DNA of 64,000 bases from a virus (taxonomy: Duplodnaviria > Caudoviricetes): positions 272-64,271 of the IMG/VR virus record IMGVR_UViG_3300002171_000008, one strand, 5' to 3'. The notes under the pieces are model-generated. The model was not told where the DNA came from. It saw only the letters and a program-made list of their open reading frames with translations, and searched no databases. The position numbers and the translations under genes were made by a program. Shown here one piece after another: positions 1-64,000 of the stretch; the stretch's first letter is position 1, and each line of letters opens with the position of its first letter.

Positions 1-343
1 AGAGGCAAACCCGCAATACCGGGGCTTCAAGGCCGGCATTATCATTTCCAAAGGCGATGAGCTGACCTACCGTGAGGGCACATTCCAGCGAAAGGGCGAA
101 ACCCTGGAGGGCGGATGGTGCGAAGTCTACCGGGCAGATCGCGATGAGCCAATTAGGTCAGAAGTCTCATTGGTCGAATATGACAAGGGCTTTGGGCTAT
201 GGGGTCAGGGTAAGAAAGCAACCATGATCAGAAAGGTAAGTGTAGTCCAGGCGCACAGAGAAGGATTTCCGACCGATCTATCCGGGTGCTATGACAGAGA
301 TGAGTTGGGCATTGATCCATCTAATGAGGTGTCGTCTACATGA
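1..343 (+). CDS. bet: 3' part of Bet/RecT-family recombinase (partial copy of 59180-60043)
   Basis: Same sequence as 59701-60043. Confidence 0.85.
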   Translation, partial: EANPQYRGFKAGIIISKGDELTYREGTFQRKGETLEGGWCEVYRADRDEPIRSEVSLVEYDKGFGLWGQGKKATMIRKVSVVQAHREGFPTDLSGCYDRDELGIDPSNEVSST

Positions 344-480
344 GAGTCAAATGCCCAACATGTGACGGATTCTGCAAGGTCCGGGATGAGCACATTGTGT
401 ACCCGGCACCATATGAGCGTGCGAATTCCCCGCTCGTGGTTTGTGAAACGTGTGGCGGTAATGGGTGGGTGGACCAATGA
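340..480 (+). CDS. Small Zn-finger protein (CxxCxG...CxxCxGxG, DnaJ-CRD-like), 46 aa
   Basis: Hand translation MRVKCPTCDGFCK...VCETCGGNGWVDQ; ATGA overlaps at both ends. Confidence 0.7.
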   Translation: MRVKCPTCDGFCKVRDEHIVYPAPYERANSPLVVCETCGGNGWVDQ

Positions 481-1238
481 CGCCTCCCATTTTTCACCTA
501 GATGACGAAGTGGAAACGGCCAACGGAACGCGATTCGAGATATCGCAGATCTGGAAGAGAAAAGACGGCTCTTTCTGGTATGCACGCGAAGGAATGTGCT
601 ATCATCCTGCCAGCTCCCTTCGATTGGTGGAAGAGCTAAAGATATGCGATTATGTGCAAATTGTTGGCCTATCCACGAGCGGTGATGCTAACTTTCCCGG
701 TACAATCGGGCAAATCGAGCGAACTGTGGGCACCAAATTCATAGTCGATAAATCTCCATATTTCTATCCACCAGAGAGCCTGCGAAAGCTCACTCCGGAA
801 GAAGTGCAAGCCCATCGGAATCCCGGAAAACCTACATACGAATATCCAATCACACCAGCAAAAGATTTTGATGATTTGACTCTCAGAGACATTGCCCGGA
901 TGTCTGGCATCTGCAAAAACGAGCATGGTGTCTGGATAAGTACTTTACTTGGAAGGGCACATAAAAACGAGGAGCGGCTATCTGCCATCGAGAAGCAACT
1001 GGAAGAGCAACAGGAAAAGATCGGTCAATTCAATGGAGAGATCGGCCACTTGATCGGATCAATTCAAGAATGTCTGATAGAAGCCGGGAATGTCGAAGCA
1101 AGGACGAAATGCCGCGAAATGGAGATCGAGAAACGCCTTGCCTTTGTCGAAAAAATCCAACGCGACCAAGACGACCTGATAGGCCGCGCAATTCGGGACG
1201 GAGTGGTTGAGATACTGGATTTTAGGAGGAAAGCATGA
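477..1238 (+). CDS. Hypothetical protein, SH3/KOW-like N-terminal modules plus C-terminal coiled coil
   Basis: ORF track; start moved to ATG 477 overlapping the upstream stop. Confidence 0.7.
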   Translation: MTPPIFHLDDEVETANGTRFEISQIWKRKDGSFWYAREGMCYHPASSLRLVEELKICDYVQIVGLSTSGDANFPGTIGQIERTVGTKFIVDKSPYFYPPESLRKLTPEEVQAHRNPGKPTYEYPITPAKDFDDLTLRDIARMSGICKNEHGVWISTLLGRAHKNEERLSAIEKQLEEQQEKIGQFNGEIGHLIGSIQECLIEAGNVEARTKCREMEIEKRLAFVEKIQRDQDDLIGRAIRDGVVEILDFRRKA

Positions 1239-1561
1239 ACCAGATACTCTTCTCCCATTTTTATTCCAAGTTCCCTCGTGATTACCAATATTCCAAGCTA
1301 CTTCAGGTACTACCTATCCAGCTTGCAGAGCTATCCCCGGAATTTAGGCGATACGATACGACTTATCTCGATGGTGGAGAAGAAAAACAATATCCTCTGC
1401 CAGCCAAAGGCAACTATATGCTCCTCCTATTGCAGGGCGGATCTGGTCATGGGAAGCTGTGGACTACCATTAGGTCGCAGACAGGAAAGGGTGGCTTGGA
1501 CAAAATGACATATTACAAGTCTCTTGTGGGTGAAATATTTGAGTGCGATGTGGTAGAATGA
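1235..1561 (+). CDS. Hypothetical protein
   Basis: ATGA overlap with upstream gene, GGAGG SD. Confidence 0.7.
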   Translation: MNQILFSHFYSKFPRDYQYSKLLQVLPIQLAELSPEFRRYDTTYLDGGEEKQYPLPAKGNYMLLLLQGGSGHGKLWTTIRSQTGKGGLDKMTYYKSLVGEIFECDVVE

Positions 1562-1873
1562 CCTGGACAGATGAAGACGTTGTATTGATCGCCGGGATCG
1601 CTGGCATAATCGTGGCAGCATGCGTCGCTTACATGCTCGGTTACTGGGATGGCTATCATGCTATCTGTGTGGGAGGGCAACCATGAACGATGAGTTCTAT
1701 CTATCCAGAAAAGAGTTCGCTGCAATGCAAAGTTTCATGGGAGGGCATGACCATGATAGATTGTTCTGATTGCCCGGACCTGAAATGCGAATATTCCCTG
1801 AACCTGATCTGGTATTGCAAACATGATGCGGCGCACACGAGTTGTAACAAGATGCTAATGCCGGGGGGAAAGG

Positions 1874-2632
1874 ATGCACGAAAAAATAAAATGTTGCATG
1901 GCTCCTGGTGAAGCCTCCCGTGAACAGGATTTGCGGATTGCGCTTTCACATGATCCGCGATTCGAGCCGCTACAGATCGATTCATCCATTCCGGTAGATG
2001 TCCAGTTTACAGGAACTCCCCGATACATCGGGCACGATCTCATGGGAGATGAATATGTTGTAAATATATTTAACTGTGAATTAAAAGAATGTTCCGACTA
2101 CATTTCATCCGCATTAGGAAAAGATGGTCACCTATATTGTCAGCATCTATCCATGAGGGAATCCGGCCATCCCGCGATGATCCTGGTTCTTGGTAGCGAC
2201 CTAGATGTCTCAAATGCAATCATAGACTCATTGCAGACCAGGTATAGAGGAAAAGAGCTTGCATTCCAGATTAGCAACTATGAAGCCAGATTGCAGGACT
2301 TCGAAGCTAGGTCGTTTGCTAACGGAATTCCTGTCATGAGGTGGAAGGCTCATCCATTTAGCCGGTTGCTCTCAACCGCGGCTCAGGTGTTGGGCGATCC
2401 ATCCATGATGGGGTATGGCCCGAAGCCTGCAAATGGAGAACGGGATTTGGTGGCGGCAAGCCTGTTATTTCGCGGTATAGGGGCGAAAACACTGGAGCCA
2501 GTCATGTCAGAATATCGGCTTGCTCTTGTGCCGAAGGGCGAATATGCCAGGCAGCCGCTAGACATGGATGGCATAGGACCGAAGAGGGCAAAGCTGATTG
2601 AAGAGAGAATAGTGATGCATTATGTCAGATGA
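1874..2632 (+). CDS. ERCC4/XPF-like structure-specific nuclease with C-terminal HhH motifs
   Basis: ELKECSDYISSALGKDGHLYCQ resembles the ERKxxxD..S..DG.L..Q signature; GIGAKT and GIGPKRA HhH hairpins. Confidence 0.65.
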   Translation: MHEKIKCCMAPGEASREQDLRIALSHDPRFEPLQIDSSIPVDVQFTGTPRYIGHDLMGDEYVVNIFNCELKECSDYISSALGKDGHLYCQHLSMRESGHPAMILVLGSDLDVSNAIIDSLQTRYRGKELAFQISNYEARLQDFEARSFANGIPVMRWKAHPFSRLLSTAAQVLGDPSMMGYGPKPANGERDLVAASLLFRGIGAKTLEPVMSEYRLALVPKGEYARQPLDMDGIGPKRAKLIEERIVMHYVR

Positions 2633-2660
2633 TAACAAGCCGGGTTGGGATGGTGTATAA

Positions 2661-2918
2661 ATGATTATATACAAATATCAATTGGTATTGGTAGAATCTC
2701 AATATGTGGCAATGCCAGAGGGCGCCAATGTTTTGTCAGTCGGATTGCAGAACGGAATTATTACCATTTGGGCCAAAGTTAACCCCAACAATCCGAGCAT
2801 TGCGTACGCATTTTATATTGTGGGCACCGGCGGCGAAGTGCCTGGCAACACTGAATTTATAGGAACTGTGATGCAAGATAGATTCGTCTGGCATGTATTT
2901 CAGGGGCAATCTACTTGA
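2661..2918 (+). CDS. Conserved viral hypothetical protein (IYKY...MP.GA.VLSV...GTG...GTV..FVWHVF family)
   Basis: Motif pattern of a widespread small phage family. Confidence 0.7.
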   Translation: MIIYKYQLVLVESQYVAMPEGANVLSVGLQNGIITIWAKVNPNNPSIAYAFYIVGTGGEVPGNTEFIGTVMQDRFVWHVFQGQST

Positions 2919-3122
2919 GTCCAATTGATAAGCTGGTTGGGAAATCTGCATTGGATAGATTCTCTACGTTGATTACGATTTTCCTCGCTGGATTAAGTTT
3001 CGGCATTGGATTCTGGTTGGCGTATAGGTGGGTTGCATGAATACCGAAACTGAATTCCTCCTGCTATATGTGGGCAGCTTGGTAGTTATATTTTTCATAG
3101 GATTTGCATTGGGGCGGTATCT

Positions 3123-3386
3123 GTGAAAAAATCTGAGCTAGAGGTCACAATCGATGCATTGCGAAAAGAAAACAACAACCTAATTACAGAACTGCTAACC
3201 TTCCAGCCAAAAGCAATCGCCCTGATCAGAGAACGAGATATGATCTTTGACAAAGCCCCATTTCACAAGCCAACCAATGCGGCAGAAGAGTGGCAGGATC
3301 TGGCATTTTGGCTATATACCTATATATGCGAAATGGATTCGCTATGTAGGAACTCAATTGAGGAGGATGAATCGTGTTGTGCTTGA
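3123..3386 (+). CDS. Hypothetical protein
   Basis: ORF track, co-oriented cluster. Confidence 0.55.
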   Translation: MKKSELEVTIDALRKENNNLITELLTFQPKAIALIRERDMIFDKAPFHKPTNAAEEWQDLAFWLYTYICEMDSLCRNSIEEDESCCA

Positions 3387-3486
3387 AATGTCGGCGCTAT
3401 TGGGTGTATTTGGATCACCCAAACGTGTGCCCGGATTGTGGCGGGCCATTGGGAAAGAAAGAATTGGTCACGCGGATACGGATTAG

Positions 3487-3795
3487 GTGGTTAATATGAT
3501 AGAGCCCACTTCCAGATTATTGCATTCCATCGAAAAAGACAACCAGACCCCCGAGCTACGGACCCTCATCTTGCAAAAAGAGATTGCTCAGGTGGGCTAT
3601 AGGTTGGTCAGATGCCATAGGACGCCACAGGACGCGGCCATATATATGGCTGATATCGGGCTTGAAATCGGTCACGCAATGGTACAGCTCGAAATGCTGG
3701 CATTGGATCTCGGATTGGCGCCGGAAGACTGCAAGCAATTGGGATTAGCAACTACCTGGCAACGTTTCAAGGAGTTTTGGCCAAATGATGATTAA
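3487..3795 (+). CDS. Hypothetical helical protein, possibly degenerate MazG-like
   Basis: EIGHAMVQLEMLALDLGL resembles the MazG ExxD helix; AGGTGG SD. Confidence 0.5.
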   Translation: MVNMIEPTSRLLHSIEKDNQTPELRTLILQKEIAQVGYRLVRCHRTPQDAAIYMADIGLEIGHAMVQLEMLALDLGLAPEDCKQLGLATTWQRFKEFWPNDD

Positions 3796-4183
3796 TTATG
3801 GCGGTTGTGTCCCCCTATCATGCATCGACTATCCAGGCTTCGCCGCAATGACAATATTTTTACGAGGTTGTCATGTGCACTGCCCCGGCTGTCACAACAA
3901 ACATCTGTGGGAAGGCAGCGATATGCGGGATGAGAGCGAAATTTTCCAAATGATAGACTCGGCAGGTGACATGATAAGTGCGGTCGTCATCAGTGGCGGA
4001 GAGCCACTTGAGCAGCCGGATGCAATCAGGTCCATTTCACAGTATGCTCATGGAAAGGGCTTGCTTGTCGGTCTGCATACCAGTGGGCGCGGTGATCTGG
4101 CAGATGTGATCGAGTGCGCCGATATGATCCTATTATCGCGACCGGAACGGCAACCCTGGAATGCGGGGGAACCTACATGCTAA
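3785..4183 (+). CDS. nrdG: Radical-SAM NrdG-like (anaerobic RNR activase-like) protein, short
   Basis: IFLRGCHVHCPGCHN (CxxxCxxC), VVISGGEP, N-terminal GG.VPLS.IDYPG. Confidence 0.75.
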   Translation: MMINYGGCVPLSCIDYPGFAAMTIFLRGCHVHCPGCHNKHLWEGSDMRDESEIFQMIDSAGDMISAVVISGGEPLEQPDAIRSISQYAHGKGLLVGLHTSGRGDLADVIECADMILLSRPERQPWNAGEPTC

Positions 4184-4258
4184 ATCATGGCAGTCGTCCC
4201 GCCACCAAGCACAAAGGTCACAAGCAGGCTAGTAAGGAAATATCGAGGTGAATTGTAG

Positions 4259-4540
4259 ATGAATAGAGATGAGTTTCGCCGCACAATAGCGGCGGCTGGG
4301 TTATACGATCATATAGAAGAAATTGAGAATTGTATCGTTGGCATGACAGAAACGCGTTTTGCACCCGACCAAATCGGAGAACTCCGCGAAGCTGCGATAC
4401 AATATCTGTGCGTTTGCACCGATTACAAAAAGCTTCGGGGCTTCTTGGTTGAATGCGACAACCTGAATAAATCTTATTGCCTGTCGTGGGATGAATCGGT
4501 CGCGATTGTGATTAGGATTGTAGCGGGGTGGGCCACATGA
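4259..4540 (+). CDS. Hypothetical protein
   Basis: ORF track, GAGGTG SD. Confidence 0.6.
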   Translation: MNRDEFRRTIAAAGLYDHIEEIENCIVGMTETRFAPDQIGELREAAIQYLCVCTDYKKLRGFLVECDNLNKSYCLSWDESVAIVIRIVAGWAT

Positions 4541-4776
4541 ATGCCACCTCCTCAATTGGCTGGTATCTTCTGGAGCACAAGATAGATCCGGCCATCTTAT
4601 CCGGCTTTCCAAAACGGCTGTCCGAGCTACCTCCTCACCTGGTCACGAGGTTGTCTGCCAATGGCATGATCCGGAAGCATGAGCGGGTTCGGGATAGGAA
4701 TTGCTATAGGTGGTTGTGGGCGGCCGGGCCGAGGTTGCCGGGATTGTTGTGCTGGATGGGTAAGCGAAAACGTTAA
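4537..4776 (+). CDS. Small winged-helix-like protein (paralogous to 40956-41402)
   Basis: SELP..L..LS.N..I......W pattern shared with the 40956 ORF; ATGA overlap. Confidence 0.5.
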   Translation: MNATSSIGWYLLEHKIDPAILSGFPKRLSELPPHLVTRLSANGMIRKHERVRDRNCYRWLWAAGPRLPGLLCWMGKRKR

Positions 4777-4777
4777 C

Positions 4778-4783
4778 TTTTTT
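4778..4783 (+). terminator. Archaeal-type T-tract terminator
   Basis: TTTTTT directly after stop codon 4776. Confidence 0.45.
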
Positions 4784-4807
4784 CTGAATAGTAAGCGATT
4801 GTGCTTA

Positions 4808-4825
4808 CGTAAAAGCTTAAATAGT
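4808..4825 (+). promoter_or_regulatory. BRE-TATA promoter driving the pentamer array cassette
   Basis: cgtAAAAGC-TTAAATAGT; expected TSS ~4845-4850 coincides with the array start. Confidence 0.65.
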
Positions 4826-4846
4826 AATAGATGCTACTATACATTA

Positions 4847-5254
4847 GATGAGGTGCGTCTAGTCGCGTTGAGTCTAGGTGGCCTTGTTGCAGCGGGGCAG
4901 TTGCGGTTAGTCAAGTCCGGTCCTGTTATGTAGGGTCGACGCATGGCAGTTCCGTTGGGTCAGGGCAAGTCGGGTCAAGGCGGTGTATGGCTAGGCAGTT
5001 GAGGTTCGGCACGTCGTGTCTTGTTACGTATTGGCAAGGCAGTTTCGGTAAGTCGTGGCTAGGTAGGCACGGCAGCCGAGTTAGGTCGGGTCGAGTTATG
5101 TCCTGGTAGGGCGCGGCAGTTCTGTCATGTCCAGTCCTGGATAGGTGTGTCATGGAAGGCAGTTAGGTCAGGTCTTGTCGCGTCCTGCTCAGGCATCACG
5201 AGTCGCGGCAGTCGTGTTCAGTCATGTTGTGTTGAGTTAGGCATGGCAAGGCAG
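4847..5254 (+). ncRNA. Putative precursor of multiple guide-like RNAs (VIPR-like)
   Basis: Non-coding periodic array between a promoter and a RAMP-like gene; RNA function is inferred. Confidence 0.65.
4852..5254 (+). repeat. Array of 9 units made of GKY-NN pentamers separated by GGCA
   Basis: GGCAG at 4896, 4945, 4994, 5038, 5071, 5115, 5158, 5207, 5250; 54 of 62 full pentamers in units 2-9 start GTY or GGY. Confidence 0.92.
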
Positions 5255-5273
5255 TCTATAGGAGAGATAACCA

Positions 5274-5903
5274 ATGGTTACAAAAGCAAAGAAAACTGAG
5301 GTCCCTTCGGGGCCTATAACTTTGAAAAGAATAGAACTAAAGACATTGGAAATACCCATCATTGGTATTAGCGAACTCATAGTTCACCAATGGTCCGAGA
5401 AGGCCAAAAGGCAAATGCTAGAGAAGCAAATGGCTCCCGGCATCAAAAGTAAACGCGAAGCCAAAGACCCCATAGCAGACTATGAAAGCACAAAATATAA
5501 GATGGCAGACGGCTCAGATGGATTCCCGTCAGTGGCCTTCAAGCAGGCGATGGTTGATGCTCTGAGATTCTACGAGGGAGTTACTATGGTCATGGGCAAG
5601 ATGGCATTTTTCGTAGAGGGCGATCTAATAAAGATCGAAGGCGAACCCCGGATGAGGGAAGATATGGTAAGGCTGGAAACTGGAGTTGCAGATATCAGGC
5701 ACCGGGCCGGTTATCCCAACTGGTCTGCGATGCTCACCATAACCTACAATCCTGAACTACTCACGGCGGAATCTGTATTGGCCCTGGTAGATGCGGCGGG
5801 CCGTATGGTGGGCGTGGGCGAATGGCGGCCATCTAGTAAGAAGAGGACGGGGCCTTATGGAAGGTTCCAGGTTGATGATAGCAGGTCGGTGGGGCGAACA
5901 TGA
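5274..5903 (+). CDS. Stand-alone Cas7/RAMP-like RNA-binding protein (Vipr-like candidate)
   Basis: LEIPIIGISELIVH (beta1), GFPSVAFKQAM (cf. IPGSSLKG), DIRHRAGYPNW, Gly-rich GVGEWRP...GPYGRFQV; GGAG SD at 5261. Confidence 0.75.
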   Translation: MVTKAKKTEVPSGPITLKRIELKTLEIPIIGISELIVHQWSEKAKRQMLEKQMAPGIKSKREAKDPIADYESTKYKMADGSDGFPSVAFKQAMVDALRFYEGVTMVMGKMAFFVEGDLIKIEGEPRMREDMVRLETGVADIRHRAGYPNWSAMLTITYNPELLTAESVLALVDAAGRMVGVGEWRPSSKKRTGPYGRFQVDDSRSVGRT

Positions 5904-6412
5904 AGAAAACATATGCCTGGAAACGCAGCATGTCACTGAATGCCGAAGTAGCAGGCACGATATTTGAGCGGATAACAAAGGAGCGGGGAAAACTGATTCC
6001 AGCTTACCTGGTAGAAGAAGCTAGACCAGATCAGTCGCCTTTGCATAATCTTTTTGAATGGGATGACACAATTGCCGCCCAACTGCATCGGGAAGAGCAG
6101 GCCAGATCAATAATCAGATGTCATGTGGTTCTGTTGTGCCCGGATGAGACCAAAAAAGAAGACGTGCCCATCCAGGTCAATGCCTCAAATTCTACCAGGT
6201 CTTTCGTGAATATCCGGCAACCAAACGGCGAAAAGAATTATGTCGCTATCACGGTCGTGATGGAAGACGACGCGATGAGGGAGCAATACATCAGAAGAGC
6301 CTATCAGGAACTTAACGATTGGGCAATCAGATACAAATCGATCACGGCATTTGCTGAAATCATTGGCATGATAAAGAAAACCAATCTTAATAAGATTTTG
6401 GCGGTGAAGTGA
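5900..6412 (+). CDS. Conserved viral partner protein (SPLH..FEWDD..AA...R..QAR..IR family)
   Basis: Family motif recognised; ATGA translational coupling to the RAMP-like gene. Confidence 0.75.
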   Translation: MKKTYAWKRSMSLNAEVAGTIFERITKERGKLIPAYLVEEARPDQSPLHNLFEWDDTIAAQLHREEQARSIIRCHVVLLCPDETKKEDVPIQVNASNSTRSFVNIRQPNGEKNYVAITVVMEDDAMREQYIRRAYQELNDWAIRYKSITAFAEIIGMIKKTNLNKILAVK

Positions 6413-6416
6413 TCAC

Positions 6417-6428
6417 TTTTCTATTTTT
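6417..6428 (+). terminator. T-tract terminator closing the cassette
   Basis: TTTTCTATTTTT after stop 6412. Confidence 0.5.
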
Positions 6429-6456
6429 GGTAAGTATATTTGCTAACCATACATAC

Positions 6457-6470
6457 GAAGCTATAAATAG
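6457..6470 (+). promoter_or_regulatory. BRE-TATA promoter
   Basis: GAAGC-TATAAATAG upstream of 6492. Confidence 0.5.
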
Positions 6471-6491
6471 AATGAGATACATCTGTCACAT

Positions 6492-6776
6492 GTGCACCCT
6501 TACCGACCGCGAGGACGTTTAGCGCATGAAGGCCGCTCAAGCCGGGTAGGTCAAGCCTGGACGCAAAACAAAGTTTGGGTTTTCAATAACGATTTTGGTG
6601 TAGCAAAAAAGCTCCCACTTGGTCTGTTCGAATGTCCTAAATGTGGTTTTGTAGTCGAGATGGACAAGAGAGGGTTTGCATTTTGCCCGGACTGTGGCGC
6701 GATTTTCAATGAGAACATAGCTCCACAAAAGGAAACTAAACGGAATATTCATGCAATCATGAGATCTGTAGCATAG
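6492..6776 (+). CDS. Zn-ribbon protein
   Basis: CPKCG...CPDCG; true start may be downstream. Confidence 0.55.
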   Translation: MHPYRPRGRLAHEGRSSRVGQAWTQNKVWVFNNDFGVAKKLPLGLFECPKCGFVVEMDKRGFAFCPDCGAIFNENIAPQKETKRNIHAIMRSVA

Positions 6777-7413
6777 GGCGGGGGCCTGATCCCCTCGGAA
6801 TGGACTACCCATTCATGGTATGCTAACAGCATCGAGGTTCATATGGAAGAAGACACTTATGCCCCATCCACCAAACCGCTACTTGTCGCGGGCCGCCTAT
6901 CTCATCCCGATTTTGAACCAAGCAAGATTAAGCTGCCCAACCTGTTAGAAATTTGCGGGATGCAAAGGAATAAATAGGTTGGCTGTATAGGTTACTTGTC
7001 TTTATCCAAGACCATCGGCCGGTGTTCATTGGCCCAACTTTGGACACCGGCCCTCATAGTCTCATGTAGACACTCCATAGGTAGCATATCGCTACCTATA
7101 TTATTGTCATCGCGAGCGCCAACTCGCTTTCGACTCCAGGGGAAACATCGGAGATGCATGAAATAGGGCATCCTGCATATCGCGAGTAATCGCATGCGAA
7201 GTACCCTGGCTATCCTTGTTATCCAAGGTCGATAACAGTCCCTTCGTCGCCTGCCGCCGGGCGGCAAAACCAATACGGCAGCATCCTCGTTTTTATGCCG
7301 AAATTCACAAAAGCTAAACAGGGGTTGTGCAAATCACCATGACTGGATCACGCACGACCCATGCGATTCTTGGGCCTGGATATGCCTTGAAACTATCCAT
7401 CGCCGAGCCACCC

Positions 7414-7938
7414 ATGACCAACCCACGTAAAACCGGCTACTGTGCCGTCTGCGAATATAACAAAACGCACAAGCGGGCCTGCATAAATAAGAAGCTCCTA
7501 GAAGGGGCCTCATATCGATCTATCGCACAGGAAACCGGCCTGGACCAGCGAACGATAGCAAAACATGCCAAGGCCGGGCATGGGATGAAGCCTGTAATTG
7601 CGCAAGCGGGCAGGACGAAGGCGGTGAAAGAGGGGTTGGAGCTGGTGAAATGCGCGAAGGAAATCTATGATGATTGTAAGGACAATGCGGCGAAGGCGAA
7701 GAAAAAAGCCGAATCATCGCGCGATTTCAGAGACGCGTCCGGGTGTTGGGACGCTGCGACCAGAGCACTAAGCGTGTTGAAAGTTGGAAGTCCAAATGAT
7801 CATGATGAAACCGAATCAGACGGCTACATAGACGCCGTGAGAGCAAACGCAAACAATGACTGGAAAGAAGCCCGCCCTGTTCAAGTGGCAACCACTGAGC
7901 CAAAAACAGAGGATGGTTCTGAATTGGTGGATGACTGA
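7414..7938 (+). CDS. terS: Probable terminase small subunit (Cys motif plus HTH)
   Basis: CAVC...GASYRSIAQETGLDQRTIAKH HTH; directly upstream of terL; start placed at ATG 7414. Confidence 0.55.
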   Translation: MTNPRKTGYCAVCEYNKTHKRACINKKLLEGASYRSIAQETGLDQRTIAKHAKAGHGMKPVIAQAGRTKAVKEGLELVKCAKEIYDDCKDNAAKAKKKAESSRDFRDASGCWDAATRALSVLKVGSPNDHDETESDGYIDAVRANANNDWKEARPVQVATTEPKTEDGSELVDD

Positions 7939-9190
7939 GAGCGGCGTAAGTGATTTTGACGGCATAATCTTGGATGGCTCCATCCGAGCTGGAAAAAGCC
8001 TGCCAGAGTCCGTGTCCTTCATCGATTGGGGGATGCACACTTACAACAACGAAACTCTCGGCATGGCAGGAAAGACCCTCGGAGCATTGCGGCGAAATGT
8101 GATTGGTCCGCTGCTCAGGGTGCTGCCCGGTAGAGGGTATAAGGTCAAAAATATACGTAGCTCTGAGACGCCTCTGCTCAAGGTGTCCAAAGGGCGGCGA
8201 ACCAATGAGTTTCATTTGTTTGGCGGAAATAATGAGAGTAGTCAAGATCCGGTGTTAGGCTTTACCGGCGGCGGCTTTTACTTCGATCAAGTAGAACTCA
8301 TGCCAAGGTCGTTTGTGGAGACGGCAGAAGGCCGATGTAGCTTAGAGGGCGCCAAACTCTGGTATAATTGCAACCCACAAGGCGCGAACCATTGGTTTTA
8401 TCAAGAGTATTTGCAAAAATTGCAAGAGAAGCAACTTTTACATTTGCATTTTCTGATGGATGACAACTTGTCTTTGTCCGCAAAGACAAGAGCTAGATAT
8501 GAGCGCCGTTGGCCCAAAGGATCGGTATTTTACAACCGAAACATCCTCGGCCTGTGGGTAATGGCAGAAGGTAGGGTATTCTCGTTTTTCTCCGATTCAC
8601 CAGATGCCGGGTATGTGGTAGATAAGGTTCCTGCCCACTTCATCGAATATTTGGTGGCCCTGGATTATGGCATTTCGAATCCATTCATCGCCCAACTTTG
8701 GGGCCTGTCCGGTGGCTGTTGGTATATCCTGAATGAGTTCAATTGGGATTCGGTCAAGCAGCAAAAGCAAAAAAGCAATCCAGATTACATTGAGGACATG
8801 GCCCGGCTGATAAACTGGAATGGTAAGCCGGTATTTCCAAAAAAGATTCTTGTACCGCCTGAAGAGAATGGCTTCATCCGCGACCTGAAACGGGCAGGGC
8901 AAACCAGACCCAATATATGCGGCGTAAATGCGGCGGATAACGCTATCATGCCCGGTATAGAGGATGTGACCACGCTATTGAGTTTAGGCAAATGCAAGAT
9001 CTACCGGACCAATTGCCCGGTTACAATCCGGAGCCTGAATGAACTCCTATGGGACCCGAAGGCGCAGGCACAGGGCAAAGATATGTACCTCAAGGGCGGT
9101 TCAGGTGCGGCTGATCATGGGTCGGATTGTACCCGCTACGCATCGCGATATGCAGCAAAAGTTCTGAGACAAATGGGGCAAATATTATGA
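7856..9190 (+). CDS. terL: Terminase large subunit
   Basis: LDGSIRAGKS Walker A, YFDQVE Walker B-like, NCNPQGANHWF, ALDYG nuclease, DHGSDCTRY. Confidence 0.9.
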   Translation: MTGKKPALFKWQPLSQKQRMVLNWWMTESGVSDFDGIILDGSIRAGKSLPESVSFIDWGMHTYNNETLGMAGKTLGALRRNVIGPLLRVLPGRGYKVKNIRSSETPLLKVSKGRRTNEFHLFGGNNESSQDPVLGFTGGGFYFDQVELMPRSFVETAEGRCSLEGAKLWYNCNPQGANHWFYQEYLQKLQEKQLLHLHFLMDDNLSLSAKTRARYERRWPKGSVFYNRNILGLWVMAEGRVFSFFSDSPDAGYVVDKVPAHFIEYLVALDYGISNPFIAQLWGLSGGCWYILNEFNWDSVKQQKQKSNPDYIEDMARLINWNGKPVFPKKILVPPEENGFIRDLKRAGQTRPNICGVNAADNAIMPGIEDVTTLLSLGKCKIYRTNCPVTIRSLNELLWDPKAQAQGKDMYLKGGSGAADHGSDCTRYASRYAAKVLRQMGQIL

Positions 9191-59179: not shown

Positions 59180-60043
59180 ATGGTAACATTGCGCAAACAA
59201 GTATTAGTCGACGCCGCAAAAACCTATGCGGCAAATGCAGGAAAAGAAGTATCGATCAATGATGCGGGCGGCATATGTCTGCAACCAGGTGATATCCTAA
59301 TCTCATGTGTGGATGGAAAGCTGGAATGCAATGATCAGGTTACGAAGGAAGCCTTGGCTGAAATCATCATGGAGATGCCACAAGAGCCTCATGTAATGCG
59401 GTCGCCCGAAAGTAAGACAATCGCACCACATATGCCGAAAAAGTCCAATGGTGGGCAAATGAAGCCCGTTTCCGGGGCAATCCGAGATGTCCAAGTGGCC
59501 GAAATGACTTTTGACGACATCAGGAACTTCCTCTGCCCGGCGGCAAACGACAAAGACACGTTCATGTTCCTGAAATTATGTCAGGCTAGGAATTTAAACC
59601 CGTTCTGCAATGAGGCCTACCTGATCCCATATGAAGACAAGAAGTCTGGAGAGATTCGATGCTCTATGGTGGTAGGAAAGGAAGCCTTCATGCGGAAAGC
59701 AGAGGCAAACCCGCAATACCGGGGCTTCAAGGCCGGCATTATCATTTCCAAAGGCGATGAGCTGACCTACCGTGAGGGCACATTCCAGCGAAAGGGCGAA
59801 ACCCTGGAGGGCGGATGGTGCGAAGTCTACCGGGCAGATCGCGATGAGCCAATTAGGTCAGAAGTCTCATTGGTCGAATATGACAAGGGCTTTGGGCTAT
59901 GGGGTCAGGGTAAGAAAGCAACCATGATCAGAAAGGTAAGTGTAGTCCAGGCGCACAGAGAAGGATTTCCGACCGATCTATCCGGGTGCTATGACAGAGA
60001 TGAGTTGGGCATTGATCCATCTAATGAGGTGTCGTCTACATGA
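59180..60043 (+). CDS. bet: Bet/RecT-family single-strand annealing protein
   Basis: FLKLCQARNLNPF..EAYLI, GGWCEVYR, MIRKV..VQAHREGFP. Confidence 0.9.
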   Translation: MVTLRKQVLVDAAKTYAANAGKEVSINDAGGICLQPGDILISCVDGKLECNDQVTKEALAEIIMEMPQEPHVMRSPESKTIAPHMPKKSNGGQMKPVSGAIRDVQVAEMTFDDIRNFLCPAANDKDTFMFLKLCQARNLNPFCNEAYLIPYEDKKSGEIRCSMVVGKEAFMRKAEANPQYRGFKAGIIISKGDELTYREGTFQRKGETLEGGWCEVYRADRDEPIRSEVSLVEYDKGFGLWGQGKKATMIRKVSVVQAHREGFPTDLSGCYDRDELGIDPSNEVSST

Positions 60044-61573
60044 GAGTCAAATGCCCAACATGTGACGGATTCTGCAAGGTCCGGGATGAGCACATTGTGT
60101 ACCCGGCACCATATGAGCGTGCGAATTCCCCGCTCGTGGTTTGTGAAACGTGTGGCGGTAATGGGTGGGTGGACCAATGACGCCTCCCATTTTTCACCTA
60201 GATGACGAAGTGGAAACGGCCAACGGAACGCGATTCGAGATATCGCAGATCTGGAAGAGAAAAGACGGCTCTTTCTGGTATGCACGCGAAGGAATGTGCT
60301 ATCATCCTGCCAGCTCCCTTCGATTGGTGGAAGAGCTAAAGATATGCGATTATGTGCAAATTGTTGGCCTATCCACGAGCGGTGATGCTAACTTTCCCGG
60401 TACAATCGGGCAAATCGAGCGAACTGTGGGCACCAAATTCATAGTCGATAAATCTCCATATTTCTATCCACCAGAGAGCCTGCGAAAGCTCACTCCGGAA
60501 GAAGTGCAAGCCCATCGGAATCCCGGAAAACCTACATACGAATATCCAATCACACCAGCAAAAGATTTTGATGATTTGACTCTCAGAGACATTGCCCGGA
60601 TGTCTGGCATCTGCAAAAACGAGCATGGTGTCTGGATAAGTACTTTACTTGGAAGGGCACATAAAAACGAGGAGCGGCTATCTGCCATCGAGAAGCAACT
60701 GGAAGAGCAACAGGAAAAGATCGGTCAATTCAATGGAGAGATCGGCCACTTGATCGGATCAATTCAAGAATGTCTGATAGAAGCCGGGAATGTCGAAGCA
60801 AGGACGAAATGCCGCGAAATGGAGATCGAGAAACGCCTTGCCTTTGTCGAAAAAATCCAACGCGACCAAGACGACCTGATAGGCCGCGCAATTCGGGACG
60901 GAGTGGTTGAGATACTGGATTTTAGGAGGAAAGCATGAACCAGATACTCTTCTCCCATTTTTATTCCAAGTTCCCTCGTGATTACCAATATTCCAAGCTA
61001 CTTCAGGTACTACCTATCCAGCTTGCAGAGCTATCCCCGGAATTTAGGCGATACGATACGACTTATCTCGATGGTGGAGAAGAAAAACAATATCCTCTGC
61101 CAGCCAAAGGCAACTATATGCTCCTCCTATTGCAGGGCGGATCTGGTCATGGGAAGCTGTGGACTACCATTAGGTCGCAGACAGGAAAGGGTGGCTTGGA
61201 CAAAATGACATATTACAAGTCTCTTGTGGGTGAAATATTTGAGTGCGATGTGGTAGAATGACCTGGACAGATGAAGACGTTGTATTGATCGCCGGGATCG
61301 CTGGCATAATCGTGGCAGCATGCGTCGCTTACATGCTCGGTTACTGGGATGGCTATCATGCTATCTGTGTGGGAGGGCAACCATGAACGATGAGTTCTAT
61401 CTATCCAGAAAAGAGTTCGCTGCAATGCAAAGTTTCATGGGAGGGCATGACCATGATAGATTGTTCTGATTGCCCGGACCTGAAATGCGAATATTCCCTG
61501 AACCTGATCTGGTATTGCAAACATGATGCGGCGCACACGAGTTGTAACAAGATGCTAATGCCGGGGGGAAAGG

Positions 61574-62332
61574 ATGCACGAAAAAATAAAATGTTGCATG
61601 GCTCCTGGTGAAGCCTCCCGTGAACAGGATTTGCGGATTGCGCTTTCACATGATCCGCGATTCGAGCCGCTACAGATCGATTCATCCATTCCGGTAGATG
61701 TCCAGTTTACAGGAACTCCCCGATACATCGGGCACGATCTCATGGGAGATGAATATGTTGTAAATATATTTAACTGTGAATTAAAAGAATGTTCCGACTA
61801 CATTTCATCCGCATTAGGAAAAGATGGTCACCTATATTGTCAGCATCTATCCATGAGGGAATCCGGCCATCCCGCGATGATCCTGGTTCTTGGTAGCGAC
61901 CTAGATGTCTCAAATGCAATCATAGACTCATTGCAGACCAGGTATAGAGGAAAAGAGCTTGCATTCCAGATTAGCAACTATGAAGCCAGATTGCAGGACT
62001 TCGAAGCTAGGTCGTTTGCTAACGGAATTCCTGTCATGAGGTGGAAGGCTCATCCATTTAGCCGGTTGCTCTCAACCGCGGCTCAGGTGTTGGGCGATCC
62101 ATCCATGATGGGGTATGGCCCGAAGCCTGCAAATGGAGAACGGGATTTGGTGGCGGCAAGCCTGTTATTTCGCGGTATAGGGGCGAAAACACTGGAGCCA
62201 GTCATGTCAGAATATCGGCTTGCTCTTGTGCCGAAGGGCGAATATGCCAGGCAGCCGCTAGACATGGATGGCATAGGACCGAAGAGGGCAAAGCTGATTG
62301 AAGAGAGAATAGTGATGCATTATGTCAGATGA
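61574..62332 (+). CDS. ERCC4-like nuclease (duplicate of 1874-2632)
   Basis: Identical translation. Confidence 0.65.
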   Translation: MHEKIKCCMAPGEASREQDLRIALSHDPRFEPLQIDSSIPVDVQFTGTPRYIGHDLMGDEYVVNIFNCELKECSDYISSALGKDGHLYCQHLSMRESGHPAMILVLGSDLDVSNAIIDSLQTRYRGKELAFQISNYEARLQDFEARSFANGIPVMRWKAHPFSRLLSTAAQVLGDPSMMGYGPKPANGERDLVAASLLFRGIGAKTLEPVMSEYRLALVPKGEYARQPLDMDGIGPKRAKLIEERIVMHYVR

Positions 62333-63484
62333 TAACAAGCCGGGTTGGGATGGTGTATAAATGATTATATACAAATATCAATTGGTATTGGTAGAATCTC
62401 AATATGTGGCAATGCCAGAGGGCGCCAATGTTTTGTCAGTCGGATTGCAGAACGGAATTATTACCATTTGGGCCAAAGTTAACCCCAACAATCCGAGCAT
62501 TGCGTACGCATTTTATATTGTGGGCACCGGCGGCGAAGTGCCTGGCAACACTGAATTTATAGGAACTGTGATGCAAGATAGATTCGTCTGGCATGTATTT
62601 CAGGGGCAATCTACTTGAGTCCAATTGATAAGCTGGTTGGGAAATCTGCATTGGATAGATTCTCTACGTTGATTACGATTTTCCTCGCTGGATTAAGTTT
62701 CGGCATTGGATTCTGGTTGGCGTATAGGTGGGTTGCATGAATACCGAAACTGAATTCCTCCTGCTATATGTGGGCAGCTTGGTAGTTATATTTTTCATAG
62801 GATTTGCATTGGGGCGGTATCTGTGAAAAAATCTGAGCTAGAGGTCACAATCGATGCATTGCGAAAAGAAAACAACAACCTAATTACAGAACTGCTAACC
62901 TTCCAGCCAAAAGCAATCGCCCTGATCAGAGAACGAGATATGATCTTTGACAAAGCCCCATTTCACAAGCCAACCAATGCGGCAGAAGAGTGGCAGGATC
63001 TGGCATTTTGGCTATATACCTATATATGCGAAATGGATTCGCTATGTAGGAACTCAATTGAGGAGGATGAATCGTGTTGTGCTTGAAATGTCGGCGCTAT
63101 TGGGTGTATTTGGATCACCCAAACGTGTGCCCGGATTGTGGCGGGCCATTGGGAAAGAAAGAATTGGTCACGCGGATACGGATTAGGTGGTTAATATGAT
63201 AGAGCCCACTTCCAGATTATTGCATTCCATCGAAAAAGACAACCAGACCCCCGAGCTACGGACCCTCATCTTGCAAAAAGAGATTGCTCAGGTGGGCTAT
63301 AGGTTGGTCAGATGCCATAGGACGCCACAGGACGCGGCCATATATATGGCTGATATCGGGCTTGAAATCGGTCACGCAATGGTACAGCTCGAAATGCTGG
63401 CATTGGATCTCGGATTGGCGCCGGAAGACTGCAAGCAATTGGGATTAGCAACTACCTGGCAACGTTTCAAGGAGTTTTGGCCAA

Positions 63485-63883
63485 ATGATGATTAATTATG
63501 GCGGTTGTGTCCCCCTATCATGCATCGACTATCCAGGCTTCGCCGCAATGACAATATTTTTACGAGGTTGTCATGTGCACTGCCCCGGCTGTCACAACAA
63601 ACATCTGTGGGAAGGCAGCGATATGCGGGATGAGAGCGAAATTTTCCAAATGATAGACTCGGCAGGTGACATGATAAGTGCGGTCGTCATCAGTGGCGGA
63701 GAGCCACTTGAGCAGCCGGATGCAATCAGGTCCATTTCACAGTATGCTCATGGAAAGGGCTTGCTTGTCGGTCTGCATACCAGTGGGCGCGGTGATCTGG
63801 CAGATGTGATCGAGTGCGCCGATATGATCCTATTATCGCGACCGGAACGGCAACCCTGGAATGCGGGGGAACCTACATGCTAA
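63485..63883 (+). CDS. nrdG: NrdG-like radical-SAM protein (duplicate of 3785-4183)
   Basis: Identical translation. Confidence 0.75.
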   Translation: MMINYGGCVPLSCIDYPGFAAMTIFLRGCHVHCPGCHNKHLWEGSDMRDESEIFQMIDSAGDMISAVVISGGEPLEQPDAIRSISQYAHGKGLLVGLHTSGRGDLADVIECADMILLSRPERQPWNAGEPTC

Positions 63884-64000
63884 ATCATGGCAGTCGTCCC
63901 GCCACCAAGCACAAAGGTCACAAGCAGGCTAGTAAGGAAATATCGAGGTGAATTGTAGATGAATAGAGATGAGTTTCGCCGCACAATAGCGGCGGCTGGG

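What the first reader, a model, noticed from the sequence alone, without database searches (positions are those of the whole stretch)
4896..5249. Decoded NN strings give testable gapped target predictions
Seen NN strings: U2 GC-TA-AA-CG-CT-AT-GG-GA-AT; U3 CC-GG-AG-AA-GG-AA-GG-AT-TA; U4 GA-TC-AC-GT-TT-AC-TT-AA; U5 TC-AA-GT-TA-(short)-AC; U6 GA-AG-GG-GA-AT-CT-AG-GC; U7 CT-AT-CA-CT-TA-GT-AT-(short); U8 AG-AG-TT-GC-CT-CA-AT-GA-GC; U9 GT-CA-AT-GT-GA-(short)-AT-AA. Scaffold deviations (GTA, CGC, TGT, CAC, GCT) fall mostly in the 3' half of units, suggesting a 5' seed region. TG is absent from about 70 NN slots. Inference: if targets are read as NN plus one skipped base, a guide would ignore codon wobble positions and resist synonymous escape. 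I saw no in-frame self-match in the ORF translations, but that check was not exhaustive.
Basis: inference. Interest (0 to 1): 0.7.

Follow-up and report, generated by a model that had tools for sequence, protein, structure and literature searches.

The report
VIPR guide-RNA array of Methanothrix virus
The pentamer array is the guide-RNA array of a VIPR system (a CRISPR-like, virus-encoded RNA-guided DNA silencer first described in 2026), and read with one skipped base its guides match the capsid, regulator and helicase genes of a rival virus family of the same methanogen host.

Summary
Window 4852-5260 is an intergenic array of G-K-Y-N-N pentamers in nine units of 33-49 nt, most of them 5n+4 long, each starting GGCA.

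The array ends 8 nt before the ribosome site of a 209-aa gene. That protein folds as a Cas7-type RAMP, and a conserved 170-aa partner gene follows it. This is a VIPR system (Vipr + vap + vrRNA array; bioRxiv 10.64898/2026.04.26.720920, .720927), of the staggered-array kind, with G-U-Y in place of G-G-Y.

It works here:
- Guide U8 matches 17/18 at the 5' end of a capsid gene in 8 related viral contigs.
- Guide U6 then matches 16/16 on those contigs, in frame, at gap 1 only.
- U3 matches 16-17/18 at a helicase Walker-A site.
- The target virus family occurs as contigs and likely proviruses in Methanotrichaceae genomes, the likely host family.
- NN composition follows codon positions 1-2, which explains the scarcity of TG.
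- Raw hit counts alone discriminate gap sizes only weakly.

This is a genuine new member of a known kind. The scan has already noted VIPR-like loci in at least 215 other genomes.

The parts
4791..4808 (+). Short hairpin (GTAAGC-GATTGT-GCTTAC) in the conserved leader, upstream of the array
   Evidence: Read directly. It is kept in L002, L003 and L184 with loop or G-U changes. Its role is unknown.
4815..4824 (+). TATA-box-like element (GCTTAAATAG). The presumed archaeal promoter of the array-vipr-vap unit.
   Evidence: The AT-rich block is conserved in L002, L003 and L184. Contigs of wastewater runs share this flank and then diverge at 4844-4849. Promoter function is inferred.
4857..4895 (+). 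U1: first, partly degenerate vrRNA unit without a 5' GGCA (NN: TA-GC-GA-TA-GG-TG-CA)
4896..4944 (+). U2 vrRNA unit, GGCA + 9 pentamers (GC-TA-AA-CG-CT-AT-GG-GA-AT). Shared with L003.
   Evidence: IMG/VR hits fall in unrelated proteins and look like chance.
4945..4993 (+). U3 vrRNA unit (CC-GG-AG-AA-GG-AA-GG-AT-TA). Probable target is the Walker-A coding site (LGRNGKGIY) of the rival virus's primase-helicase.
   Evidence: 16/18 in frame in L224. 17/18 in G093, and 18 hits against 6 in the control, in the host family.
4994..5037 (+). U4 vrRNA unit (GA-TC-AC-GT-TT-AC-TT-AA). No convincing target.
5038..5070 (+). U5: short 33-nt unit, conserved among the related viruses unlike the other units
   Evidence: near-identical copies in L002 (2141), L003 (3616) and L184
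5071..5114 (+). U6 vrRNA unit (GA-AG-GG-GA-AT-CT-AG-GC). Its target is the DRGEILRA site of a small wHTH-like protein of the rival virus and provirus family.
   Evidence: 16/16 at L223:6650-6672, 15/16 in L219, 14/16 in L220. 4 perfect and 25 one-mismatch hits in 24 of 105 host-family genomes.
5115..5157 (+). U7 vrRNA unit (CT-AT-CA-CT-TA-GT-AT). Target not found.
5158..5206 (+). U8 vrRNA unit (AG-AG-TT-GC-CT-CA-AT-GA-GC). Its target is roughly codons 8-16 (P-SIWSAKLL) of the rival virus's major capsid gene, antisense.
   Evidence: 17/18 in L219, L220, L222, L223, L224, L226, L232 and L233. The gene is PF25209 Phage_capsid_4.
5207..5249 (+). U9 vrRNA unit with a degenerate 3' end (GT-CA-AT-GT-GA-AG-..)
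5250..5262 (+). Terminal GGCAGTC junction, directly before the ribosome site (GGAGAG, 5261-5266) of vipr
   Evidence: The same ending is seen in L002, L003, L184 and L127.
5274..5903 (+). vipr: 209-aa stand-alone Cas7-type RAMP
   Evidence: AlphaFold2 pLDDT 89, pTM 0.83. Foldseek top hits are all Csm3/Cas7/Cmr4, E about 1e-6. VIA-align gives Z 11.3 and 10.9. hhalign to the ESCO56 Vipr-like protein: prob 97.2, E 3.7e-11. More than 2269 homologs.
5900..6412 (+). vap candidate: 170-aa partner gene overlapping vipr by ATGA
   Evidence: phrog_15946. Found next to vipr on the same strand for at least 64 of the 80 best-scoring hits (of 85) among the fetched loci. AlphaFold2 pLDDT 93: N-terminal helices, a small beta unit and a 45-residue C-terminal helix. 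No PDB fold match. No nuclease signature.

Best explanation
The array is the guide-RNA (vrRNA) array of a VIPR system carried by a complete 59.7-kb tailed archaeal virus, probably of Methanothrix.

Inferred from the published type II systems: a promoter at about 4815 transcribes the array, probably together with vipr and vap, and the transcript is cut at the GGCA junctions into guides of 7-9 pentamers. One Vipr protomer (5274-5903) binds each pentamer, hides the G-U-Y bases and presents the two N bases. The filament then pairs with DNA in which every third base is skipped, and blocks transcription.

Shown here in silico: read with a one-base gap, guides U8, U6 and probably U3 match the capsid gene start, a small wHTH-like regulator gene and the primase-helicase Walker-A site. 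All three belong to one distantly related virus and provirus family found in Methanotrichaceae. The skipped base falls on the codon wobble position. The system is therefore best read as a weapon against rival or resident viruses of the same host. Neither Vipr nor Vap shows a nuclease, so silencing is more likely than cutting.
For: Protein:
- Cas7-type RAMP fold.
- Profile match to the Vipr-like protein of an Ounavirinae coliphage whose flanks carry GGY/NN vrRNAs.
- The G-loop motif GVGEWRP aligns with that protein's GVGDWRP. This motif appears to correspond to the D177-W178-R179 that the SUSP1 structure paper reports as contacting G1, G2 and Y3.

Locus:
- The pentamer array lies directly upstream of the gene in all relatives, down to 54% protein identity.
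- 77 of 80 genome loci with a homolog carry G[G/T]Y-NN runs on the gene's strand and almost none on the other.
- The partner gene is conserved next door.
- Units of length 5n+4 fit the 'staggered arrays with 1-nt overlap' of the paper.

Guides:
- NN positions use all 16 dinucleotides and differ between viruses that are 92-97% identical in Vipr.
- Wastewater contigs show other arrays between the same flanks.

Targets:
- U8 matches 17/18 in 8 homologous contigs, two of them from the metagenome that holds relative L003.
- U6 matches 16/16 on the same contigs, independently of how they were found. The chance for one protein-like random guide is 5.8e-5 in these contigs and 6.3e-4 in all 62 hit loci.
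- Only gap 1 works.
- Both sites are in frame.
- The target family's capsid gene has homologs in 15 of 105 genomes of the family of the Methanothrix MAG that carries a 90%-identical vipr fragment.
- The U6 site lies 1.5 kb and 14 kb from those capsid genes in G036 and G057.
- NN composition fits codon positions 1-2.
Against: - No expression or processing data. No run on record as RNA holds the stretch, and contigs cannot show RNA ends.
- Only 2-3 of 9 guides have a credible target. The U2 and U4 hits look like chance.
- Homologous contigs are not independent hits. After correcting for about 25 guides the key coincidence has p of about 0.002-0.016, not far smaller.
- In host-family genomes gap 2 gave 21 hits against 29 for gap 1.
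- U8 has a 16/18 match to a conserved host gene in 17 genomes. So 16/18 by itself means little, or is tolerated.
- The scaffold is G-U-Y, not the tested G-G-Y, and there is no structured 3' tail (z = -1.6). Transfer of the mechanism from type II is therefore an inference.
- Host assignment rests on one MAG contig.
Confidence: 0.85

Rival explanations
1. It is a VIPR locus, but the target matches found here are coincidences between short protein-like strings and conserved motifs. The real targets, and hence the biological role, remain unknown.
For: - Each guide carries only 28-36 bits, so IMG/VR yields 4-8 independent exact 16-base hits per guide.
- The gap-2 control gave 21 near-matches in host-family genomes.
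- An earlier, similar target claim of this scan partly fell on later checking.
Against: - The U6 perfect match was found on contigs selected by a different guide. Its empirical chance is 5.8e-5 to 6.3e-4 per guide.
- A third guide hits the same family.
- All sites are in frame.
- Only gap 1 scores above shuffles on these contigs.
Confidence: 0.1
2. The pentamers are binding sites for a ring or filament protein on the mRNA leader or on DNA (TRAP-like attenuation, iterons, or a partition or packaging site), and the NN positions are mere spacers.
For: - Triplet plus two-base spacer is the layout of TRAP sites (own knowledge).
- The array sits in the leader of the downstream operon.
- Vipr does bind one pentamer per protomer in the published structures.
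Against: - Spacers without function would not have the composition of codon positions 1-2.
- They would not match rival-virus genes at one gap size only.
- The adjacent protein is a Cas7-type RAMP homologous to proven Vipr.
Confidence: 0.03
3. The array is a dense cluster of primase recognition sites (5'-GTC-3', as for T7 gp4) that marks a replication origin.
For: GTC is the T7 primase trinucleotide, and its full sites are pentamers (own knowledge). The virus encodes a primase-polymerase.
Against: - The encoded primase is of the archaeo-eukaryotic type, not DnaG-type.
- Relatives use GGY or GCY in the same position next to the same RAMP gene.
- The idea explains neither the GGCA punctuation nor the target matches.
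Confidence: 0.01

Closest known systems
Type II VIPR of Escherichia phage SUSP1 and the Pseudomonas fulva prophage (bioRxiv 10.64898/2026.04.26.720920; structures in 10.64898/2026.04.26.720927)
   Same: - Stand-alone small RAMP with a conserved G-loop motif.
- Guides made of a fixed trinucleotide plus two variable bases.
- One-base-skip match to coding DNA, with the skip on the wobble position.
- Targets in rival mobile elements.
- A two-gene operon without a nuclease.
   Different: - The scaffold is G-U-Y rather than G-G-Y.
- There is no structured 3' tail or pseudoknot.
- Units abut through GGCA instead of being separate roughly 100-nt genes.
- The partner gene is not homologous to the one beside the SUSP1-like protein (hhalign prob 0.1).
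- Vipr similarity is detectable only over the C-terminal 58 columns.
- The host is archaeal.
VIPR 'staggered vrRNA arrays' (fig. S18 legend of the same preprint)
   Same: Guides follow one another without spacers, and neighbouring guides share a boundary. The unit length of 5n+4 here fits a one-base overlap.
   Different: The figure itself is not held, so identity of the junction (GGCA) and of the VIPR type could not be checked.
Non-canonical VIPR arrays (GAC/NN, CAC/NN, WGT/NN, TGH/NN) in bioRxiv 10.64898/2026.10.21.760802
   Same: Period-5 arrays with another fixed trinucleotide next to a Vipr-like fold. GAC/NN is the reverse-complement reading of GTC/NN.
   Different: In this clade GTC is on the same strand as vipr. 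No targets or gap rule were reported for those clusters in the text I could read.
Class 1 CRISPR backbone (Cas7/Csm3/Cmr4 on crRNA)
   Same: The same protein fold (Z 9-11). One protomer per fixed step of the guide, with the thumb breaking the duplex periodically.
   Different: - No CRISPR repeats, spacer-acquisition genes or large subunit.
- Step of 5 nt with 2 pairing bases, instead of 6 nt with 5.
- The guides are genome-encoded rather than acquired.
TRAP (trp RNA-binding attenuation protein) sites
   Same: Repeated triplets separated by two-base spacers, bound one per subunit.
   Different: TRAP spacers carry no information and TRAP has a different fold. Here the 'spacers' are the informative part.

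Membership tests
VIPR system | Small stand-alone RAMP protein (RRM core, G-loop, thumb), about 20 kDa | tested here: met
   209 aa; model pLDDT 89. Foldseek top hits are all Cas7-family, E 1e-6 to 1e-4. VIA-align wide gives Z 11.3 (Cmr4) and 10.9 (Csm3), and the top 24 entries are all CRISPR RAMPs.
VIPR system | Sequence homology to a Vipr protein of a described clade | tested here: met
   hhalign of A1 against the 195-aa protein of Ounavirinae phage ESCO56, which is flanked by GGY/NN vrRNAs: prob 97.2%, E 3.7e-11 over 58 columns including the G-loop. ESCO56 is taken as SUSP1-like from its vrRNA layout. SUSP1 itself was not fetched.
VIPR system | Tandem pentamers with a conserved trinucleotide and hypervariable NN, 9-16 per guide, beside vipr on its strand | tested here: met
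   G-K-Y/NN, with 7-9 full pentamers per regular unit in the window and 8-17 in relatives. All 16 NN are used. The trinucleotide is GUY (43 of 69 pentamers) rather than GGY (15 of 69).
VIPR system | No CRISPR array or cas genes at the locus | tested here: met
   The neighbours are a radical-SAM gene, small ORFs, a Zn-ribbon gene, terminase and portal. No other repeats lie in 3000-8000. The rest of the genome was not scanned for cas genes.
VIPR system | Adjacent accessory gene (vap) | tested here: met
   A 170-aa gene overlaps vipr. Its homologs lie beside vipr on the same strand for at least 64 of the 80 best hits. Which of vap1-6 it is could not be tested, because the paper's tables are not held.
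VIPR system | Targets follow the one-base-skip rule | tested here: met
   U8 17/18, U6 16/16 and U3 16/18 on one virus family, at gap 1 only and in frame. This is in silico only.
VIPR system | vrRNAs are expressed, processed and bound by Vipr; the complex silences targets | not testable with these tools
   No RNA holder is on record. Contigs of two runs labelled RNA-Seq cover parts of the array, but contigs cannot show RNA ends or expression.
CRISPR-Cas class 1 (type III or type I effector) | CRISPR repeat-spacer array plus large-subunit and adaptation genes beside the Cas7 | tested here: not met
   No repeat of CRISPR size and no cas neighbours. The only array has period 5.
TRAP-type attenuator site | TRAP-fold ring protein, and spacers free of information | tested here: not met
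   The adjacent protein is a RAMP. The spacers have codon-like composition and match targets.

The most novel reading that the evidence does not exclude
A G-U-Y-scaffold VIPR of an archaeal (Methanothrix) virus obeys the same one-base-skip code as the tested G-G-Y systems. It is aimed at three essential or regulatory genes (capsid, wHTH-like regulator, primase-helicase) of a provirus family resident in the same host family. The G2-to-U switch arose at least twice within one Vipr family, together with changes just after the G-loop WRP motif. Scaffold recognition would then be evolvable and could give mutually orthogonal VIPR variants.
Probability: 0.5. Interest if true: 0.55.

Novelty: new member of a known kind. 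Interest (0 to 1): 0.4.

Why it matters
The locus adds an archaeal-virus example with identifiable natural targets to a class of RNA-guided systems that is only months old.

It shows in silico that the gapped code holds when the second scaffold base is U instead of G, and in a staggered array without a 3' tail.

It also gives a concrete picture of virus-against-provirus conflict in Methanothrix, a key acetoclastic methanogen of digesters and sediments.

Scaffold variants with matched Vipr proteins could serve as orthogonal programmable DNA binders.

It does not open a new category.

Tried and rejected
- **Rfam:** nothing in 4000-6000 at E up to 10 beyond a chance hit. No hammerhead or other family in the linker-bearing arrays L016, L031 and L035.
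- **Tandem Repeats Finder:** misses the array.
- **Early ideas dropped:** T7-type primase-site cluster, TRAP-like site, iterons. The RAMP fold and the VIPR papers explain the locus.
- **Self-targets:** none above shuffles at gaps 0-3.
- **U2 and U4 exact IMG/VR hits:** these fall in unrelated proteins (a serine recombinase and others) and are taken as chance.
- **U3 18/18 hit in L238:** out of frame. One such hit is expected among 16.
- **U8 in 105 host-family genomes:** nothing at 1 mismatch or fewer. The 2-mismatch hits are mostly one conserved host gene.
- **Raw-count test of gap sizes for U6:** 29 hits (backward control 1) at gap 1 against 21 (control 11) at gap 2, so counts alone are weak.
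- **Sequencing runs:** no RNA holder is listed. Two runs labelled metagenomic RNA-Seq are contigs only.
- **Vap fold:** no PDB match by Foldseek (best E 0.66) or VIA-align (best Z 5.3, coiled-coil helix only).
- **Array as RNA:** no unusual stability, z = -1.6.
- **The window's capsid protein:** not found in the Methanothrix MAG that holds the vipr fragment.
- **Supplementary tables of the VIPR paper:** not held, so the VIPR type (I-VII) could not be assigned.

Full report
**Observation.**
Window 4852-5260 (+) is non-coding. It lies between a small ORF that ends at 4776 and a 209-aa ORF that starts at 5274. It consists of pentamers G-[T/G]-[C/T]-N-N. Lag-5 autocorrelation is 0.446 against about 0.2 for other lags. 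No other part of the window comes near this; the score is about 6.5 SD above the mean.

A four-base word GGCA interrupts the pentamer phase nine times, at 4896, 4945, 4994, 5038, 5071, 5115, 5158, 5207 and 5250. Units are therefore mostly 5n+4 long (44 or 49), with one short 33-nt unit and two of 43 nt whose ends are degenerate.

Of 69 scaffolds, 27 are GTC, 16 GTT, 8 GGC and 7 GGT. The deviants sit in the 3' halves: 34/34 canonical against 21/31. TG occurs only in two degenerate pentamers. That is not significant by itself.

**Context.**
The window is an IMG/VR virus record of 64,271 bp whose first and last 4,571 bp are identical, so the genome is 59.7 kb. Terminase, an SPP1-type portal and an HK97-type capsid gene follow within a few kb. 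A vipr fragment 90% identical over residues 2-74, with its own array, lies on a contig of a Methanothrix MAG. This and the archaeal-type primase are the only host clues.

**The neighbouring proteins.**
- The 209-aa protein has more than 2,269 homologs, all unnamed.
- With a 48-sequence alignment AlphaFold2 gives pLDDT 89 and pTM 0.83.
- Foldseek against the PDB returns only Cas7-family chains at the top (Csm3, type VII Cas7, Cmr4; E 1e-6 to 1e-4).
- An independent all-against-all structural search gives Z 11.3 (Cmr4) and 10.9 (Csm3), and the top 24 entries are all CRISPR RAMPs.
- The next gene (170 aa, ATGA overlap) has homologs directly downstream of the RAMP gene, on the same strand, for at least 64 of the 80 best of 85 hits among the loci I fetched.
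- Its model (pLDDT 93) has no PDB counterpart and no nuclease features.

**Relatives.**
- Four viral contigs with the RAMP gene (97%, 92%, 54% and 54% identity) all carry a pentamer array directly upstream, ending in the same GGCAGTC/GCCAGTC before the ribosome site.
- The first three units of the window equal those of L003. The rest differ.
- L002 (97% Vipr identity) shares only the short 33-nt unit.
- Contigs from wastewater runs keep the flanks (up to 4844-4849 and from 5273) but hold other arrays.
- Of 80 bacterial and archaeal genome loci with a homolog, 77 have G[G/T]Y-NN runs on the gene's strand.
- GTY dominates only in the window's clade (7 sequences, support 92/86) and in two other small lineages. 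The tree needs at least two switches.
- The columns that best separate GTY from GGY proteins lie right after the G-loop WRP motif.

**What it is.**
A literature search for the pentamer pattern found the VIPR preprints. VIPR systems comprise a Vipr RAMP of about 20 kDa, an accessory vap gene, and vrRNAs of 9-16 pentamers in which GGY is fixed and NN is hypervariable. The NN bases pair with DNA in which one base is skipped after each pair. The skipped base usually falls on the codon wobble position. Targets are rival phages, satellites and prophages, and the outcome is transcriptional silencing. The paper also names 'staggered arrays' whose guides overlap by one base, and non-GGY consensus repeats.

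A profile of the window's protein family matches the Vipr-like protein of coliphage ESCO56 (prob 97.2%, E 3.7e-11). That protein's flanks hold textbook GGY/NN vrRNAs with tails. The aligned G-loop GVGEWRP aligns with that protein's GVGDWRP. This motif appears to correspond to the D177-W178-R179 reported in SUSP1 to contact G1, G2 and Y3.

The locus therefore meets every definable VIPR feature that sequence can test. It differs in four ways: its G-U-Y scaffold, the lack of a structured tail (z = -1.6), the GGCA-punctuated staggered layout, and an unrelated partner gene. A later preprint lists non-canonical repeats, including GAC/NN, which is the reverse-complement reading of GTC/NN.

- No guide matches the virus's own genome above shuffled guides at any gap.
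- Exact scans of IMG/VR with the first eight NN at gap 1 gave 9 to 19 hits per guide, forming about 4 (U2) and 8 (U8) independent groups where I grouped them. A single hit therefore proves nothing.
- For U8, eight of 18 hits are one homologous site. It is the 5' end of a 293-aa capsid gene (PF25209) and encodes (P)SIWSAKLL on the opposite strand. It matches 17/18, and the contigs differ from each other exactly at the skipped positions. Two of these contigs come from the metagenome that yielded relative L003.
- I then scanned those eight contigs (163 kb, both strands) with all 26 guides of the clade at gaps 0-3, and with shuffled guides.
- U6 gave 16/16 at L223:6650-6672, and 15/16 and 14/16 at the same site in L219 and L220. 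U8 gave 17/18 and U3 16/18, all at gap 1 only. Shuffles reached at most 14, 15 and 15 respectively.
- The U6 site is in frame (DRGEILRA) in a small coiled-coil plus wHTH-like protein. The U3 site is LGRNGKGIY in a 730-aa primase-helicase ORF.
- For random protein-like eight-codon guides, the chance of a perfect gap-1 match is 5.8e-5 in these contigs and 6.3e-4 in all 62 hit loci. For about 25 guides this gives p of 0.002-0.016.
- The target virus is a distant relative of the window virus: portal about 30% identical (E about 1e-69) and terminase 29-30%. It has no Vipr. The window virus has no homolog of the targeted capsid or regulator.

**Host-family genomes.**
- The targeted capsid gene has homologs (up to 59% identity) in 15 of 105 genomes of the family of the Methanothrix MAG, some inside megabase contigs.
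- U6 at gap 1 with one mismatch or fewer gives 29 hits in 24 genomes, 4 of them perfect, against 1 for the backward control.
- At least 12 of these hits encode DRG[ED]ILRA. The seven fetched for inspection lie in the same small protein family...QKD[RS]G[ED]ILRAL.... In G036 and G057 the site is 1.5 and 14 kb from the capsid homolog.
- The gap-2 version gave 21 unrelated hits (1 perfect; control 11). Raw counts therefore hardly separate the gaps. The signal lies in the convergence on one gene family and one virus family.
- U3 gives 18 hits against 6 in the control, including 17/18 at LGRNGKGIY.
- U8 has no hit at 1 mismatch or fewer there. Its 16/18 hits are mostly one conserved host gene. That is a warning that 16/18 alone is not evidence.

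**Composition test.**
In 303 well-formed NN slots of the clade (last pentamers excluded), the frequencies follow those of codon positions 1-2 in sense orientation. The correlation is r = 0.80, and logL is -826.7 against -840.1 for uniform and -844 to -884 for other frames or strands. This supports coding-sequence targets with the skip on the wobble base without needing any target. It also explains the scarcity of TG (Cys, Trp and stop codons): 10 seen against 9.6 expected.

**Mechanism, with status.**
- *Shown:* the anatomy, the fold, the homology, the conserved gene pair, the hypervariable NN, and the gap-1 in-frame matches to one rival virus family.
- *Inferred from the type II work:* transcription from the conserved TATA-like element at 4815-4824, processing at GGCA, one Vipr per pentamer, R-loop/triplex binding, and silencing rather than cutting.
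- *Not supported:* the 5' seed. In SUSP1 the filament advances at its 5' edge.

**Verdict.**
The class has been in print since 2026, and this scan has already noted VIPR-like loci in at least 215 genomes. One earlier, bolder target claim of the scan partly fell on later checking. For that reason I priced the matches with a protein-like null and counted gene families rather than contigs.

Noticed in passing
window 1-4300 = 59701-64000: The record's terminal repeat is 4,571 bp and identical throughout, so the unit genome is 59,700 bp. The repeat ends about 550 bp before the array. I cannot tell whether it is a true long terminal repeat or an assembly overlap.
   Followed up: partly
window 5038-5070: The short 33-nt unit (GGCA GTTTC GGTAA GTCGT GGCTA GGTAG GCAC) is kept nearly unchanged in L002, L003 and twice in L184, while the other units turn over. 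It may be a guide against a conserved target, or a structural or processing element.
   Followed up: no
About 20 have long arrays of 140-800 nt. Some have conserved linkers between runs: a 38-nt linker in L016 and a 26-nt linker in L031. In several, a weak Vipr-HMM hit lies on the opposite strand, so that the array reads GAC/NN in the gene's direction.
   Followed up: partly
Mycobacterium and Gordonia phages (e.g. Donkeykong MN586001 37391-37981, ODay MW534375 10364-10957): Cultured actinobacteriophages encode proteins 46-48% identical to this Vipr, annotated as hypothetical. They would be tractable models for this Vipr family.
   Followed up: no
window 4844-4849 and 5273, runs X3 and X4: Wastewater metagenome contigs share the promoter flank and the start of vipr but carry different arrays in between. 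The array is hypervariable within natural populations.
   Followed up: partly
17 of 105 Methanotrichaceae genomes (e.g. G057:C1:3091817-3091842): Guide U8 matches one conserved, apparently chromosomal gene at 16/18, with the same two mismatches everywhere. This is either chance carried along by homology or a tolerated near-target.
   Followed up: no
G036:C1:1486437-1486459 and G036:C1:1687884-1687906: One Methanotrichaceae genome has two copies of the U6 target gene 200 kb apart (16/16 and 15/16). The second copy lies next to a capsid homolog, which suggests two related proviruses in one chromosome.
   Followed up: no
window 3785-4183: A short (132 aa) radical-SAM protein with QueE-like and NrdG-like hits lies 0.7 kb upstream of the array. 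There is no evident link to the VIPR locus.
   Followed up: no
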